Source of the DNA: Escherichia coli
GTDB taxonomy: Bacteria > Pseudomonadota > Gammaproteobacteria > Enterobacterales > Enterobacteriaceae
Length of the DNA stretch: 64,000 nt
Assembly: GCF_044324875.1 (NCBI RefSeq)
Contig: NZ_CP172185.1
Strand: one strand, 5' to 3'
Shown piece after piece: positions 41,481 to 64,000 of this stretch (positions are counted from its first letter, which is position 1; each line of letters begins with the position of its first letter). The notes under the pieces are model-generated. The model saw only the letters and a program-made list of their open reading frames with translations, ran no database searches and was not told where the DNA came from. The position numbers and the translations under genes were made by a program.

Positions 41481-42323
41481 TTATTGTGGGATAAATCCCA
41501 GTTCCTGTTGTGCAAGTTCATGTACCCGAATATGTCCCGGGTATGACTGATTGCTGAGTTGTTCATACCAGTCATCCGGAATATATCTGAGATCGATTAT
41601 ATTTTTTTTCAGTAATATAAGCGTCATTGTTCTGACGGAACGATCATCTGCTATATTTAATGACTGGCAAAAAGAGAAATAATCTTCTGCCAGAATTCGG
41701 GATGATTCAGCTTTTGATGAATCATCCCATCCGTTTTTATCTACATTTTCTTCGATAAATGCAGATAATATATCAAGATAATTATCCCGTGCCTTTCGTT
41801 CCAGTTGGCTATATTGTCTGTAACTCAGCGTCAGTTGTGATGGCCGTTCTGCCCTTATATTCATAGTTTCTGCGGGACGGACGGAAGAAAAATTATCCTC
41901 ACGACATTCTTCACCATAACGGGTACTTAGCTGTCTGACGGGACTGATAAAAGAAAGACGCTGGCGGGGGGTCAGAACTTCCACTAATACCCATATATTC
42001 CGGGGATCATAAAATCGCATGAGAACAGGTTTCTCCTGTTCGGGGATCCTAACCCACAGATAACGTCTGAAGTGTTGCTGTAGCTCACGCATGGATGACT
42101 CAGAAGTCAGATATATTCCCCATGGCGACGCCTTAACACTCAGCCATGCTTCAACCTCCGGAACGACTTCCACGAGATAGGGGGCTAGCGCGACCAGATC
42201 CAGTTGTATGGGTTCTGCATACAGACAACAGTGCGGGGGATTCACCTCGTTCAGAAAATCCAGCAATCCTTCCTCCACAGCGCCATCCACAATGGCGTAC
42301 TGCACGGGTGCCGTTTCCATCAC
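41481..42323 (-). CDS. DUF4123-family T6SS effector adaptor/chaperone (Tap/Tec-like)
   Basis: 280-aa ORF with the family's N-terminal YAIVDGA-type motif; start overlaps the vgrG stop (ATGA). Confidence 0.7.
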   Translation of the reverse strand: MMETAPVQYAIVDGAVEEGLLDFLNEVNPPHCCLYAEPIQLDLVALAPYLVEVVPEVEAWLSVKASPWGIYLTSESSMRELQQHFRRYLWVRIPEQEKPVLMRFYDPRNIWVLVEVLTPRQRLSFISPVRQLSTRYGEECREDNFSSVRPAETMNIRAERPSQLTLSYRQYSQLERKARDNYLDILSAFIEENVDKNGWDDSSKAESSRILAEDYFSFCQSLNIADDRSVRTMTLILLKKNIIDLRYIPDDWYEQLSNQSYPGHIRVHELAQQELGFIPQ

Positions 42324-44278
42324 TTATCCTCCTTCGGGCAGTGCGCCACAAACATTGTCCCGCTTCCGGCTGCGGCTTTCAGGATCACCGGGCGCATCGG
42401 CAGGATCACGTCTCCCGGACTGCCTCCGCCGTTAAGATTGATTTTCGCGCCCTTAATATCCACGCCGCCGGAATGGATCACCACAAATGAACCGCCCACC
42501 CGCAGACTGATTTTGCTGTCGCTCTGTAAAACAATATCGCCCTGTACGCTGATACCCAGCGCGCCGCTTATTTTCTGTGCCAGATCGCCTTTCACCTCCA
42601 GCCCCTGATTGCCCTCTGTCAGGCTGACATGGTCTTTGGTGGTTTTATGGTCCTGTTTACCTTCAACCGTCACTTTCCGGTCATTTGCCACCACCAGGGA
42701 TTCATCATGCCCGATGCTGACCGTCCGGTCATAGTTGACCCGCTTATCCTTGCTGTTCAGCACAACGACTTGCATATTTTTCTGTGCGTGCAGGTAAATT
42801 TCTTCCTTGTCCGTCGCGTCCTCGAACCGCAGTTCATTAAAGCCGCTTCCTTTATAGGTCTTCGATCGTATCGTCATCTGCGTCTTCGTCCCCGGCAGAC
42901 TCCCCGGCGAACGGTTGTCCTCATGGTACGTCCGCCCCATGATTATCGGCTGGTCCGGGTCGCCGTTCAGGAAGTCTACAATCACTTCCTGGCCGATGCG
43001 CGGTATCGCCAGGTTACCAAATCCCGGCCCCGCCCACGCCTGCGACACCCTCACCCAGCATGAACTCGCCTCCGTTGCCGGGTTATACCTGTCCCAGTGA
43101 AACTGCACTCGCACACGTCCGTGTTCGTCGCAGAAGATTTCCTCTCCCGCAGGACCGGTGACAATGGCGCTCTGTGGCCCGTCCACCTTCGGTTTGCTTT
43201 GCAGCCGTGGACGCCACGTCCGGTCCGCCGGTATCACCTCTAACTGATTTCCCAGCATGGTTCCTCTCCCCTGGCTGCCGTGCAGCGCCTGCGGCTGGTC
43301 CCCTGACAGAATACTCTGTACCACCTGCCATTCACGGTTCAGCATCTTCTGCGGATGCCCCGTCAGCGTAAACCGCGTTCCCGGCCACAGCTTCGGTGAA
43401 TTACTCTGCCCTGTGGCCTTTTCCGCATCACTGCGCAGGCTCTCCATCTGGTACAGCGTGAAATCCTTGCCGTGCTGTTCATCCTTGAACCTTCCCGGAT
43501 AATCAAATATCTCATACTGCTCCAGCTGTCCGTTCAGGTTCTCACCCTGCTGCTCATACATCCCCGGCCAGTCCGGCACCTTAAACGTGTAATCCTGGCT
43601 CTGCACCGACGACGGGCGGACATACGCCTCATAACGGAACATACTGACACACTCTGTCTCCGCTCCTGCCGATGTGTCCGGGTTAAACGGAAGCTCTCCC
43701 GCCTGTGACAGCCCCGCCACATCGTCGCACAGCGTCAGCTTCTGCTCCGGACTGTCCGCCGCAAACCGCTCAAAGAAGAAAATTCCCTCCTCCGCCCACA
43801 ACCGCGCCAGAAACGCCAGGTCGCTTTCCCCGTACTGGACACAGAACTCCCGCGCCGGATGGTCCTCATAAAACAGCGGTGTCCACTCCGTGACGCCGTT
43901 CTCGTTCAGTAACGTGGCCGATATCGTCCGGATATCCTGCTGCTGGAAGATACGGAAGTTCTGCCGCAGCCCGCACCGCCATAACGGCGGCTCAATACGC
44001 AGGTGATAACGCATCTGCCAGCCATTGTTCTCCTGCATGCCAAAACCCGCCACCACGCCGGTGACATAACGCAGCGGGATGACGCCCTGCCAGATGGTCA
44101 GCGTCGCCTTCTTCTCCAGCAGCATCTCCGCCGTCTGCATAAAAGAGTCGCTGGCAACATCCACACTCATCACAAACGGATAAGACTGGTTCTGGATTAA
44201 CCTGAAATGCACCACTGCAAAGGTGTCCGGCTCCTGGCCGTCAATCTCCAGCGTAAAGCGCAGACCTTTTAAGGACAT
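42320..44278 (-). CDS. vgrG: T6SS spike protein VgrG
   Basis: 652-aa ORF MSLKGLRFTLEIDGQE... with gp27/gp5-like VgrG architecture and C-terminal beta-helical repeats. Confidence 0.9.
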   Translation of the reverse strand: MSLKGLRFTLEIDGQEPDTFAVVHFRLIQNQSYPFVMSVDVASDSFMQTAEMLLEKKATLTIWQGVIPLRYVTGVVAGFGMQENNGWQMRYHLRIEPPLWRCGLRQNFRIFQQQDIRTISATLLNENGVTEWTPLFYEDHPAREFCVQYGESDLAFLARLWAEEGIFFFERFAADSPEQKLTLCDDVAGLSQAGELPFNPDTSAGAETECVSMFRYEAYVRPSSVQSQDYTFKVPDWPGMYEQQGENLNGQLEQYEIFDYPGRFKDEQHGKDFTLYQMESLRSDAEKATGQSNSPKLWPGTRFTLTGHPQKMLNREWQVVQSILSGDQPQALHGSQGRGTMLGNQLEVIPADRTWRPRLQSKPKVDGPQSAIVTGPAGEEIFCDEHGRVRVQFHWDRYNPATEASSCWVRVSQAWAGPGFGNLAIPRIGQEVIVDFLNGDPDQPIIMGRTYHEDNRSPGSLPGTKTQMTIRSKTYKGSGFNELRFEDATDKEEIYLHAQKNMQVVVLNSKDKRVNYDRTVSIGHDESLVVANDRKVTVEGKQDHKTTKDHVSLTEGNQGLEVKGDLAQKISGALGISVQGDIVLQSDSKISLRVGGSFVVIHSGGVDIKGAKINLNGGGSPGDVILPMRPVILKAAAGSGTMFVAHCPKEDK

Positions 44279-44452
44279 AATGACCTCCCTGATTTATTCA
44301 CGGACCAAATGATTCTTACCATGCAGCAAAGGGTGCCAGTGCAGCGTTACACTCATCTTTACATTTTCAGGTACGCTACCGCCCGGGTTTCCGGCATCCG
44401 CCATCTCCCTCATGAAAGCGTAACTCCTTACTGACACTCATTTTTTACACGT

Positions 44453-63441: not shown

Positions 63442-63451
63442 GGGGATAGTG

Positions 63452-64000
63452 ATGAGCAATTACGCACTGACACAAACTATCGTTACCGGCAGCGATCCGC
63501 GCGCCCTGCCGGAGTTCAGCGCCATCCGCGAAGAAATTAACAAAGCTAACCACCCGTCACAGCCGGAGCTGAACTGGAAACTGGTGGAATCGCTGGCGCT
63601 GTCGATTTTTAAGGCCAACGGGGTGGATTTGCATACCGCCACCTACTATACGCTGGCGCGTACCCGTAATCAGGGGCTGGCAGGGTTCTGCGAAGGCTCG
63701 GAACTGCTGGCTGCGATGATCACCCACGAATGGGATAAATTCTGGCCGCAGGGTGGCCCGGCGCGGACTGAGATGCTGGACTGGTTCAATACCCGCACCG
63801 GGAATATTCTGCGCCAGCAGGTGTCCTTTTCCGAAAATGATCTGCCGTTGCTCTACCGCACGGAACGGGCTTTACAGCTTATTTGCGACAAACTCCAGCA
63901 GGTGGAACTGAAGCGCCAGCCGCGCGTGGAAAACCTGCTTTATTTTGTGCAGAACACACGCAAGCGGTTTGAGCCGCAGCCCGGAAACCGTACTGATACG
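63452..64000 (+). CDS. T6SS-associated ImpA-N-domain protein (VasL/TagA-like), 3' end outside the window
   Basis: Open frame from ATG at 63452 (MSNYALTQTIVTGSDPRALPEFSAIREEINKANHP...) continuing to the window edge. Confidence 0.45.
   Translation, partial: MSNYALTQTIVTGSDPRALPEFSAIREEINKANHPSQPELNWKLVESLALSIFKANGVDLHTATYYTLARTRNQGLAGFCEGSELLAAMITHEWDKFWPQGGPARTEMLDWFNTRTGNILRQQVSFSENDLPLLYRTERALQLICDKLQQVELKRQPRVENLLYFVQNTRKRFEPQPGNRTDT

What the first reader, a model, noticed from the sequence alone, without database searches (positions are those of the whole stretch)
42320..64000. Complete T6SS gene cluster (hcp-vgrG divergent from tssBCEFG-tagH-tssJKL-clpV-vasI-tssA-tssM)
All 13 core components can be assigned, with tight coupling or overlap between successive genes. 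This is a known system family, not novel, but it sets the context for the cargo region. An FHA-domain gene is present without a visible PpkA-type kinase or PppA-type phosphatase gene inside the window, so the FHA protein may be regulated from elsewhere or act kinase-independently. The last gene is cut by the window edge.
Basis: partly seen in the sequence, partly recalled or inferred. Interest (0 to 1): 0.4.

Follow-up and report, generated by a model that had tools for sequence, protein, structure and literature searches.

The report
Known E. coli type VI secretion cluster
This stretch is the well-known, complete "T6SS2" type VI secretion gene cluster of Escherichia coli (identical to that of strain 042), an ordinary find whose one curious feature, an FHA-domain gene with no partner kinase, was published in 2010 and fits a phosphorylation-independent scaffold role.

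Summary
Window 42320-64000 carries all 13 core T6SS genes, intact and in the order stated. All pass curated Pfam and NCBIfam cut-offs. The DNA is 100% identical to E. coli 042 and many other strains.

It is the aspV-associated E. coli T6SS2 (subclass i1, Vibrio cholerae-like). It was described for 042 in 2010, including the remark that its FHA gene has no kinase or phosphatase.

Corrections:
- tssM is complete. The gene cut by the window edge is a 15th operon gene, vasL.
- In 042 the island continues about 1.8 kb further (vasL, a second hcp) and ends inside yafT, next to aspV. It holds no ppkA or pppA.
- NCBI's PGAP annotation marks vgrG as a pseudogene, but it is a full-length, cargo-specific allele.

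Added here:
- The TagH N-terminal domain is predicted with confidence to have an FHA fold. It has nevertheless lost every canonical phosphothreonine-contact residue (R→H42, S→A58, H→A61, N→P78).
- Among 94 aligned TagH sequences only 4 keep the signature. All 3 of those with usable context sit beside PP2C and kinase genes. None of 8 degenerate ones does.
- This points to a kinase-independent scaffold, as in V. cholerae.

Verdict: already known, low interest.

The parts
42320..44278 (-). vgrG / tssI, the spike protein (652 aa). Full length, with a cargo-specific C-terminal third.
   Evidence: TIGR03361 scores 596 bits and covers profile positions 1-513 of 513; Phage_GPD, Phage_base_V and Gp5_trimer_C are all present. 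It is about 98% identical to the intact 660-aa VgrG of strain 536 up to residue ~488, then diverges. The divergent 3' end travels with the downstream DUF4123 module in 322 genomes. PGAP flags it 'missing C-terminus' in 042 and JNE25-005.
44499..45017 (-). hcp / tssD, the tube protein (172 aa).
   Evidence: PF05638 at 113 bits; TIGR03344 at 209 bits against a cut-off of 58.9.
45018..45719 (.). A 702-bp AT-rich divergent intergenic control region between hcp and tssB.
   Evidence: Sequence. GC of the 44001-46000 block is 0.45, against 0.51-0.60 in the operon. Sigma-70-like hits are not above shuffles. No sigma-54 -24/-12 match. H-NS repression was shown for the aspV T6SS of EHEC EDL933, whose sequence was not compared with the window (PMC5363993).
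45720..46223 (+). tssB, the small sheath subunit (167 aa).
   Evidence: PF05591 at 152 bits; TIGR03358 at 172 against 97. This is the gene deleted as 'hcp1' in APEC DE719.
46246..47730 (+). tssC, the large sheath subunit (494 aa).
   Evidence: VipB + VipB_2; TIGR03355 at 673 against 271.
47735..48160 (+). tssE, a gp25-like baseplate protein (141 aa).
   Evidence: PF04965; TIGR03357 at 134 against 53.
48166..50007 (+). tssF, a baseplate protein (613 aa).
   Evidence: PF05947 at 414 bits; TIGR03359 at 548 against 260.
49971..51020 (+). tssG, a baseplate protein (349 aa). It overlaps tssF by 37 nt.
   Evidence: PF06996 at 290 bits; TIGR03347 at 350 against 143.
51037..52317 (+). tagH, an accessory FHA-domain protein (426 aa; an alternative start at ATG 51025 gives 430 aa). 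It has an N-terminal FHA fold with a degenerate pThr pocket, a disordered linker, and a helical T6SS_FHA_C domain.
   Evidence: TIGR03354 at 419 against 120. PF20232 at 140 bits; PF00498 only 24 bits. The structure prediction gives pLDDT 96-98 for residues 10-115, and Foldseek returns FHA domains with probability 1.00. Pocket residues are H42/A58/A61/P78.
52314..52838 (+). tssJ, the outer-membrane lipoprotein (174 aa).
   Evidence: PF12790; TIGR03352 at 142 against 32.
52841..54187 (+). tssK, a baseplate protein (448 aa).
   Evidence: PF05936 at 451 bits; TIGR03353 at 419 against 100.
54192..54965 (+). tssL, a DotU-like protein (257 aa from ATG 54192; PGAP starts it at 54210). The DotU profile accounts for nearly the whole protein and nothing else was matched, so there is no C-terminal extension domain.
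   Evidence: PF09850 at 198 bits, matching residues 37-238 of 257. TIGR03349 at 216 against 90; the T6SS-specific short-TssL model NF038239 scores 68 against a cut-off of 180, so that one is not passed. The Shine-Dalgarno (SD) pairing is stronger at 54192 (-8.4) than at 54210 (-2.3 kcal/mol).
54975..57707 (+). tssH / clpV, the AAA+ sheath recycler (910 aa).
   Evidence: TIGR03345 at 1122 against 885.
57704..58447 (+). vasI, an accessory gene (247 aa). It overlaps clpV by 4 nt, so there is no room for a vasH gene.
   Evidence: PF11319 at 186 bits; TIGR03360 at 267 against 124.
58452..59894 (+). tssA (480 aa).
   Evidence: ImpA_N + T6SS_VasJ; TIGR03362 at 456 against 230.
59914..63441 (+). tssM, the IcmF-like membrane-complex protein. 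It is complete: 1175 aa from GTG 59914, which has an AAGGAG SD. PGAP's start at 60004 gives 1145 aa.
   Evidence: TIGR03348 at 942 against 388, covering profile positions 2-1168. Four IcmF Pfam domains. Start-site sequence and SD energies.
63452..64000 (+). vasL, an accessory gene of ImpA_N + VasL type. Only the 5' 549 nt lie in the window; it is cut by the window edge (452 aa in 042).
   Evidence: ImpA_N at 73 bits on the window fragment. The full 042 protein has ImpA_N + PF12486 VasL. PGAP names it 'VasL domain-containing protein'.
41481..42320 (-). DUF4123 adaptor/chaperone gene. Its start overlaps the vgrG stop by 1 nt.
   Evidence: PF13503 at 90 bits against 25.8. Weak similarity to the Tla1 chaperone. 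PGAP coordinates.
39888..41459 (-). Candidate cargo effector (523 aa) from an orphan family.
38811..39821 (-). Candidate immunity gene (336 aa ORF; PGAP starts it at 39773) with an N-terminal signal peptide.
   Evidence: Translation. No family match. Annotated as hypothetical in 042.

Best explanation
**What it is.** This is the chromosomal E. coli T6SS2 island (subclass T6SS-i1). It sits between yafV and yafT, next to the aspV tRNA gene. It encodes a complete contractile injection machine.

**How the machine works** (inferred from established T6SS biology):
- TssJ, TssL and TssM form the envelope-spanning membrane complex.
- TssE, TssF, TssG and TssK, together with the VgrG spike, form the baseplate.
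- TssA primes polymerisation of the Hcp tube and the TssB/TssC sheath.
- Sheath contraction fires Hcp and VgrG, carrying a toxin loaded through the DUF4123 adaptor, into a neighbouring cell.
- ClpV then recycles the sheath.

**Gene layout** (shown by the sequence):
- One leftward operon runs hcp-vgrG-adaptor-effector-immunity.
- One tightly coupled rightward operon runs tssB to vasL, and to hcp2 beyond the window.
- A 702-bp AT-rich region separates them. By analogy with the EHEC aspV T6SS it is probably silenced by H-NS.

**The FHA protein.** TagH is not a phospho-switch here. Its FHA fold is kept, but all canonical phosphothreonine-contact residues are replaced, and no PpkA, PppA or TagF is encoded. 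It most likely acts as a constitutive assembly scaffold linking membrane complex and baseplate, as shown for the V. cholerae homologue. That last step is inferred for E. coli.
For: **Identity.** Window 42000-64000 is 100% identical to E. coli 042 and many other genomes. 547 of 5426 complete E. coli genomes cover at least 80% of it.

**Completeness.** All 13 core proteins pass curated Pfam family cut-offs. Twelve also pass the cut-off of a T6SS-specific NCBIfam model, and TssL passes the DotU/TssL family model TIGR03349. Profile coverage is near full length.

**Location and naming.**
- The 042 annotation shows vasL, hcp2, yafT, tRNA-Asp and dnaQ downstream, with no kinase.
- PMC2808357 describes this cluster, Ec042-0210-0226, at aspV.
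- T6SS2 corresponds to T6SS-i1.

**Relatives share the layout.** TagH relatives lie in clusters with the same order: tssBCEFG-tagH-tssJKL-clpV-(vasH)-vasI-tssA-tssM.

**TagH.**
- The FHA fold is predicted at pLDDT 96-98, with Foldseek probability 1.00 to OdhI, GarA, FhaA and Rad53.
- The pocket residues are H42, A58, A61 and P78, where the canonical signature has R, S, H and N.
- Reference positions from the literature are A. tumefaciens R30/S46, and P. aeruginosa R32/S48 with V. cholerae S38/K54 at the same positions.
- The three representatives that keep R-S-H-N and have usable context all have PP2C + Pkinase genes beside tssM.
- None of eight degenerate representatives shows either gene in the visible 7-21 kb.
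- V. cholerae lacks PpkA. Its Fha/TagH is essential, is not detectably phosphorylated, and acts as a condensate scaffold.

**Function and regulation in other strains.**
- Deleting the T6SS2 locus or its dotU gene attenuates APEC DE719, and the deletion primers from that study match this window.
- The EHEC aspV T6SS is functional and repressed by H-NS.
Against: - No expression or secretion data exist for this exact allele. The 042 genome paper notes there is no evidence that the genes are expressed.
- PGAP marks vgrG as a pseudogene.
- No PAAR gene was detected in the part of the island inside the window.
- In V. cholerae, mutating the residues at the two pocket positions (S38, K54) still reduces Hcp secretion. 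The pocket surface may therefore bind something, and 'phospho-independent' is not proven.
- The 'Hcp1 secretion' readout in the APEC study actually concerns the tssB product, which weakens it as proof of firing.
- The kinase/FHA-signature correlation rests on 11 loci, some only partly visible.
Confidence: 0.85

Rival explanations
1. The cluster is complete, but TagH is still a phospho-reader. It would be controlled in trans by a Ser/Thr kinase and phosphatase encoded elsewhere in the genome.
For: - FHA domains are canonically pThr readers.
- In V. cholerae, alanine substitutions at the two pocket positions reduce Hcp secretion. A review proposes binding to components phosphorylated by unidentified kinases.
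- The rest of the genome could not be searched here.
Against: - All four canonical residues (R, S, H, N) are replaced in the E. coli protein. A58 naturally carries the alanine that the V. cholerae K54A mutant was given.
- Sequences that keep the signature have the kinase and phosphatase inside the cluster.
- No kinase or phosphatase lies in the window or in the whole 042 island.
- TagH phosphorylation was not detected in V. cholerae.
Confidence: 0.08
2. The cluster looks complete but is a decaying or silent relic. It would have a crippled spike gene, no PAAR tip and IS-ridden flanks, and would never be fired.
For: - PGAP marks vgrG as 'incomplete, missing C-terminus' in 042 and JNE25-005.
- ISAs1 copies, and in 042 a group II intron, sit in the cargo flank.
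- No PAAR domain was found in the island ORFs scanned.
- The EHEC T6SS is expressed very weakly in vitro.
- There is no expression evidence in 042.
Against: - VgrG covers the whole TIGR03361 profile and has the gp5 C-terminal domain.
- It has the same length class as the intact VgrG of strain 536 (652 against 660 aa).
- Its stop overlaps the adaptor gene's start.
- The vgrG 3' end plus the adaptor-effector-immunity module is kept together in 322 genomes, 174 of them at 99% identity or more.
- All 13 core ORFs are intact and identical in many strains.
- The same locus contributes to virulence in APEC.
Confidence: 0.07

Closest known systems
E. coli T6SS2 (T6SS-i1) at aspV: EAEC 042 Ec042-0210-0226, and the NMEC RS218 / APEC DE719 'T6SS2' locus
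   Same: Window 42000-64000 is 100% identical in nucleotide sequence to 042. The genes, their order and the insertion site are the same. The APEC DE719 deletion primers match the window with 0 and 2 mismatches. The FHA gene without a kinase was already noted in 2010.
   Different: Only the cargo flank differs. The window has an intact ISAs1 transposase where 042 and JNE25-005 carry a group II intron insertion. No complete genome in the collection matches window 22000-46000 end to end; the best cover 85-88%. Other strains, such as 536, carry a different vgrG C-terminus with a DUF2169/PAAR-like cargo.
Vibrio cholerae large T6SS cluster (the vas genes named in the papers read: vasH, vasK) and Vibrio-type i1 clusters
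   Same: The gene order is the same: tssB-C-E-F-G-fha-J-K-L-clpV-...-vasI-tssA-tssM-vasL. The accessory genes vasI and vasL are shared. The FHA protein lacks the canonical Arg and no PpkA/PppA is present. The hcp-vgrG-DUF4123-effector-immunity layout resembles V. cholerae auxiliary cluster 1 (from my own knowledge, not tested).
   Different: - The E. coli cluster has no vasH sigma-54 activator, because clpV overlaps vasI. It also has no sigma-54 promoter match.
- TagH is about 70 aa shorter in the linker and has H/A rather than S/K at the two pocket positions.
- The SD-led internal start that makes the short Fha isoform in Vibrio (M262) has no counterpart with an SD in E. coli.
Threonine-phosphorylation-regulated T6SSs (P. 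aeruginosa H1-T6SS Fha1/PpkA/PppA; A. tumefaciens Fha/PpkA/TssL)
   Same: They share the core machine and a TagH/Fha protein with an N-terminal FHA fold and a T6SS_FHA_C domain.
   Different: No PpkA, PppA or TagF is present. The pThr-contact residues equivalent to R32/S48 (P. aeruginosa) and R30/S46 (A. tumefaciens) are H42/A58 here.

Membership tests
Type VI secretion system, class i (13 core components) | TssA | tested here: met
   58452-59894; TIGR03362 at 456 bits against a cut-off of 230; ImpA_N + VasJ.
Type VI secretion system, class i (13 core components) | TssB and TssC, the contractile sheath | tested here: met
   TIGR03358 at 172 against 97 and TIGR03355 at 673 against 271, both with full profile coverage.
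Type VI secretion system, class i (13 core components) | TssD (Hcp), the tube | tested here: met
   44499-45017; TIGR03344 at 209 against 58.9. A second copy lies beyond the window in 042.
Type VI secretion system, class i (13 core components) | TssE, TssF, TssG and TssK, the baseplate | tested here: met
   TIGR03357 at 134 against 53; TIGR03359 at 548 against 260; TIGR03347 at 350 against 143; TIGR03353 at 419 against 100.
Type VI secretion system, class i (13 core components) | TssH (ClpV) ATPase | tested here: met
   TIGR03345 at 1122 against 885. ClpB and ClpA models score below their own cut-offs.
Type VI secretion system, class i (13 core components) | TssI (VgrG), the spike | tested here: met
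   TIGR03361 at 596 against 186 covering positions 1-513 of 513, plus Gp5_trimer_C. The PGAP pseudogene flag is judged an artefact of the reference length.
Type VI secretion system, class i (13 core components) | TssJ, TssL and TssM, the membrane complex | tested here: met
   TIGR03352 at 142 against 32; TIGR03349 at 216 against 90; TIGR03348 at 942 against 388. TIGR03349 is a DotU/TssL family model. The T6SS-specific short-TssL model NF038239 was not passed (68 against 180), and PGAP names the gene icmH.
Type VI secretion system, class i (13 core components) | Actual secretion or contraction activity | not testable with these tools
   Only literature on the same locus in APEC and on the aspV T6SS of EHEC is available.
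E. coli T6SS2 / subclass T6SS-i1 | Chromosomal site next to aspV (between yafV and yafT) and sequence identity to described T6SS2 loci | tested here: met
   yafV lies at 35127-35906 in the window. In 042, yafT and tRNA-Asp follow hcp2. The region is 100% identical to 042. The DE719 T6SS2 primers match.
E. coli T6SS2 / subclass T6SS-i1 | V. cholerae-like gene order with the accessory genes tagH, vasI and vasL | tested here: met
   The same order is seen in relatives L007, L013, L014 and L015. No phylogenetic placement of TssB or TssF was made.
Threonine phosphorylation pathway of T6SS (PpkA-PppA-Fha-TagF) | Hanks-type kinase PpkA in or near the cluster | tested here: not met
   No HRDxKxxN motif in any of the six frames of the window. 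None in the 042 island annotation. The rest of the genome was not searched.
Threonine phosphorylation pathway of T6SS (PpkA-PppA-Fha-TagF) | PP2C phosphatase PppA | tested here: not met
   No DGxGG motif. No PP2C hit among the ORFs scanned. None in the 042 annotation.
Threonine phosphorylation pathway of T6SS (PpkA-PppA-Fha-TagF) | FHA domain with the canonical pThr-binding motifs (GR, SxxH, NG) | tested here: not met
   The fold is present. The residues are H42, A58, A61 and P78. The motif definition is taken from PMC3162421.
Threonine phosphorylation pathway of T6SS (PpkA-PppA-Fha-TagF) | TagF repressor | tested here: not met
   No gene of the cluster matches a TagF family in Pfam or NCBIfam.

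The most novel reading that the evidence does not exclude
TagH of E. coli T6SS2, and most of its i1-type relatives (90 of the 94 aligned TagH sequences, 93 cluster representatives plus the query), may be a 'pseudo-reader'. It would be an FHA fold that has lost every canonical phosphothreonine contact and serves purely as a phospho-independent assembly scaffold. If so, loss of the R-S-H-N signature would be a sequence marker predicting absence of the PpkA/PppA switch in a T6SS cluster. The observed split is 3 of 3 against 0 of 8 loci. A weaker add-on is that the conserved Met near the start of the C-terminal module (M212) could give a short isoform, as in Vibrio.
Probability: 0.55. Interest if true: 0.3.

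Novelty: already known. Interest (0 to 1): 0.12.

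Why it matters
As a cluster it adds nothing new. It is one of the three known E. coli T6SS types, it was sequenced and described in 2010, and it has been surveyed in more than 130,000 genomes.

Its value here is as context:
- It fixes the identity, orientation and boundaries of the island, which runs from about 35950 to about 1.8 kb beyond the window.
- It shows that the neighbouring cargo module (DUF4123 adaptor, 523-aa orphan protein, secreted 336-aa protein) belongs to an intact machine.

The degenerate FHA pocket is a small but useful point. 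It gives a sequence-level reason why T6SS2 needs no kinase, and it suggests a simple marker for phosphorylation-independent T6SSs.

Tried and rejected
1. **Is the PGAP pseudogene call on vgrG a real truncation?** Rejected. The profile is fully covered, the length equals that of the intact 536 allele, and the allele is conserved with its cargo in 322 genomes.

2. **A Vibrio-style internal TagH isoform.**
- Vibrio-type relatives carry a conserved 'MDE..LDLLE' motif at the known M262 start. The positive control has an SD pairing of -7.4 kcal/mol.
- E. coli has M212 five alignment columns downstream, but no SD: -4.1, against a background mean of -2.7 and a 5th percentile of -6.4.
- This is not supported, though not excluded.

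3. **A sigma-54 promoter in the hcp-tssB intergenic region, as for VasH-dependent Vibrio operons.** No match was found. Window-wide there were 34 hits against 44 expected by chance.

4. **Sigma-70 and terminator scans of the intergenic region.** The counts were not above shuffles.

5. **Sequence search of TagH against PDB.** No FHA hit at E < 1. The fold was recovered only through structure prediction.

6. **Identifying the exact source genome.** No complete genome matches window 22000-46000 end to end.

7. **Fold assignment for the 523-aa effector.**
- Foldseek found nothing.

Full report
**1. What is in the sequence**

The ORF map of 42320-64000 shows two leftward genes and a rightward run of 15 closely packed genes. 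A 702-bp AT-rich gap at 45018-45719 separates them.

Pfam and NCBIfam assign them as follows:
- Leftward: VgrG/TssI (42320-44278) and Hcp/TssD (44499-45017).
- Rightward: TssB, TssC, TssE, TssF, TssG, TagH, TssJ, TssK, TssL, TssH/ClpV, VasI, TssA, TssM, then the first 182 codons of an ImpA_N protein.

Every core protein passes a curated family cut-off by a wide margin and covers its profile almost end to end. Examples are TssC at 673 bits against 271, TssF at 548 against 260, TssH at 1122 against 885 and TssM at 942 against 388. One qualification applies to TssL. It passes the DotU/TssL family model (216 against 90), but not the T6SS-specific short-TssL model (68 against 180). No core gene is frameshifted or truncated.

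Gaps along the operon run from -37 to +22 nt. This uses ATG 54192 for tssL and GTG 59914 for tssM, both of which have much better Shine-Dalgarno (SD) pairing than the PGAP starts. The tagH gap is 16 nt from the PGAP start 51037, or 4 nt from the alternative ATG 51025.

**2. Corrections to the observation**

- tssM ends at 63441 and is complete.
- The gene cut by the window edge starts at 63452. In E. coli 042 it is a 452-aa ImpA_N + VasL-domain protein.
- The longest-ORF starts of tagH (TTG 50929) and tssA (TTG 58386) overlap the preceding genes by 60-90 nt and are over-extensions.

**3. Identity**

- Window 42000-64000 is 100% identical to E. coli 042 (NC_017626.1 244836-266836) and to many other strains. 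547 of 5426 complete E. coli genomes cover at least 80% of it, and about 2000 more carry a version of 80-90% identity.
- The 042 genome paper describes exactly this locus as the strain's third T6SS, Ec042-0210-0226. It places it at aspV, calls it widespread in E. coli from urinary, avian, cerebrospinal-fluid and faecal sources, and notes there is no evidence of expression (PMC2808357).
- In current nomenclature this is E. coli T6SS2, which corresponds to subclass T6SS-i1 (PMC6730261; bioRxiv 10.1101/2025.01.23.634537).
- The lambda-Red primers used to delete 'hcp1' of the APEC DE719 T6SS2 locus match the window with 0 and 2 mismatches (PMC4224132). This ties the window directly to an experimentally studied locus.

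**4. Beyond the window, and the island boundaries**

In 042, tssM is followed by:
- vasL;
- a second hcp (159 aa; TIGR03344 at 204 bits);
- yafT on the opposite strand;
- tRNA-Asp (aspV) and then dnaQ.

Homology to K-12-type genomes resumes inside the 3' end of yafT, at a position equivalent to about 65780 in window coordinates. On the left, the core genes fadE, ivy and yafV end at 35906. The island therefore spans about 35950 to 65780, roughly 30 kb.

No kinase or phosphatase lies anywhere in it. The only tRNA inside the window is thrW at 10490-10565.

GC content is 0.51-0.60 in the operon and 0.38-0.43 in the cargo and IS flank at 36-42 kb.

**5. The vgrG 'pseudogene'**

PGAP marks vgrG as 'incomplete, missing C-terminus' in 042 and JNE25-005. 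I judge this an annotation artefact, for these reasons:
- The 652-aa ORF covers the whole TIGR03361 profile and has the gp5 C-terminal trimerisation domain.
- It is about 98% identical to the intact 660-aa VgrG of strain 536 up to residue ~488. After that it diverges through the beta-helix and tail.
- Its stop overlaps the start of the DUF4123 adaptor gene.
- The divergent 3' end travels with the DUF4123, 523-aa and 336-aa genes in 322 genomes.

This is the usual modular exchange of a VgrG C-terminus together with its cargo. Strain 536 carries a DUF2169/PAAR-like module instead.

**6. The FHA gene without a kinase**

The absence is confirmed:
- No Hanks catalytic-loop motif or PP2C motif occurs in any of the six frames of the window.
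- None is found among the ORFs scanned.
- None is annotated in the complete 042 island.

This was already published in 2010.

What I add concerns the FHA domain itself.

*The fold is retained.*
- The Pfam FHA match is marginal, at 24 bits.
- Close homologues carry only PF20232 in precomputed annotation.
- No PDB FHA domain is found by sequence at E < 1.
- A structure prediction built on 75 homologues gives residues 10-115 a pLDDT of 96-98.
- Foldseek then returns FHA domains for all of the top 50 matches (OdhI, GarA, FhaA, Rad53 FHA1), with probability 1.00 and TM about 0.8.

*The binding pocket is degenerate.*
- I aligned the N-terminal 135 residues with 93 full-length representatives of TagH clusters, clustered at 50% identity.
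- The canonical GR...SxxH...NG motifs, as defined in PMC3162421, are complete in only 4 of the 94 sequences.
- The E. coli protein has H42, A58, A61 and P78 at the R, S, H and N positions. Sixty sequences have Ser in place of the Arg.
- The H42-A58 spacing of 16 residues equals that of R30/S46 in A. tumefaciens. It also equals that of R32/S48 in P. aeruginosa and S38/K54 in V. cholerae.

*Genomic context separates the two groups.*
- The three signature-keeping representatives with enough contig all have PP2C and Pkinase genes directly after tssM.
- The fourth signature-keeping contig is too short to judge.
- Eight degenerate representatives show neither gene in 7-21 kb of visible context. Five of them show the Vibrio-like run clpV-vasH-vasI, and four of those continue it into tssA and tssM.
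- Adding the window to the eight degenerate loci gives 3 of 3 against 0 of 9. The chance of that split is 1 in 220. The sample is small and some loci are only partly visible.

*Published work on the V. cholerae homologue agrees.*
- V. cholerae has no PpkA or PppA.
- Its Fha/TagH is essential, and no phosphorylation is detectable.
- It acts as a phase-separating scaffold that contacts TssL and the baseplate (PMC13389060, PMC8993066, PMC10482370).

*One caveat.* In V. cholerae, S38A and K54A still lower Hcp secretion, so that surface may bind a partner.

MxiG of the Shigella T3SS is a precedent for an FHA fold that does not bind pThr.

**7. Differences from the Vibrio-type i1 cluster**

- The E. 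coli operon has no vasH sigma-54 activator. clpV and vasI overlap by 4 nt, and the intergenic region has no -24/-12 match.
- Control therefore differs. In EHEC the aspV T6SS is repressed by H-NS and barely expressed in vitro. The AT-rich 702-bp divergent region fits that picture, but this is inferred, not shown, for this allele.
- The internal start that yields the short Fha isoform in Vibrio (M262, preceded by an SD) is visible in the Vibrio-type relative L007, with SD pairing of -7.4 kcal/mol. E. coli TagH has a Met five alignment columns away (M212) but no SD, at -4.1 against a background mean of -2.7.

**8. Mechanism**

*Shown:*
- gene content and order;
- intactness of the ORFs;
- identity to the published locus;
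- a degenerate FHA pocket on a confidently predicted FHA fold;
- absence of kinase and phosphatase genes.

*Inferred from established T6SS biology:*
- the TssJLM membrane complex;
- the TssEFGK-VgrG baseplate;
- TssA-primed Hcp/TssBC polymerisation, contraction and ClpV recycling;
- the DUF4123 adaptor loading the downstream 523-aa protein onto the VgrG tail;
- the 336-aa signal-peptide protein acting as periplasmic immunity.

**9. Verdict**

This is a correct call of a known system. Its one oddity has already been published and now has a plausible sequence-level explanation. Novelty: already known. Interest is low. The most interesting material lies next door, in the orphan cargo effector.

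Noticed in passing
[not shown]
   Followed up: partly
window 45675-45722 and 46221-46268: The 'hcp1' deletion primers of the APEC DE719 T6SS2 study (PMC4224132) flank the gene that Pfam and NCBIfam identify as tssB (VipA, sheath small subunit), not hcp. The 'Hcp1 secretion' reported for that locus therefore concerns TssB. The true hcp genes are 44499-45017 and a second copy after vasL.
   Followed up: yes
window 42320-44278 (-): NCBI's PGAP pipeline annotates this vgrG allele as a pseudogene ('missing C-terminus') in E. coli 042 and JNE25-005. The ORF is nevertheless full length and conserved with its cargo in 322 genomes. Automated T6SS 'completeness' surveys may wrongly score such strains as lacking vgrG.
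   Followed up: yes
window 36178-38501: The left end of the island carries an intact ISAs1/ISEc1-family transposase (37380-38501), a DUF2859 'integrating conjugative element protein' remnant (36178-36690) and a 167-aa ORF with no family. In 042 and JNE25-005 a second ISAs1 copy here is interrupted by a group II intron (ltrA), which the window lacks. The window therefore comes from a different strain.
   Followed up: partly
window 59914-60004 and 54192-54210: Two PGAP start sites look wrong. The start given for tssM in 042 falls on a CTG codon at 60004, whereas GTG 59914 has an AAGGAG SD 7 nt upstream. For tssL, ATG 54192 has far better SD pairing than PGAP's 54210.
   Followed up: partly
window 1-31000: The rest of the window is mostly E. 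coli core genome. It runs from pao-like aldehyde oxidoreductase genes (170-4970) and thrW tRNA-Thr (10490-10565) through ORFs whose sizes suggest the proA-dinB block (named from memory, not tested). A truncated lateral-flagellar (Flag-2) flhA remnant lies at about 24.3-26 kb. This means the strain, like 536, has lost the Flag-2 cluster that JNE25-005 keeps.
   Followed up: no
L003, L004, L006 (relatives) against L007, L013, L014, L015: TagH relatives with a canonical FHA signature lie in clusters ordered tagH-tssJ-K-L-M-PP2C-kinase-x-tssA-tssB. Degenerate ones lie in the Vibrio-type order with a sigma-54 activator between clpV and vasI. E. coli T6SS2 is the Vibrio-type order minus that activator.
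   Followed up: partly
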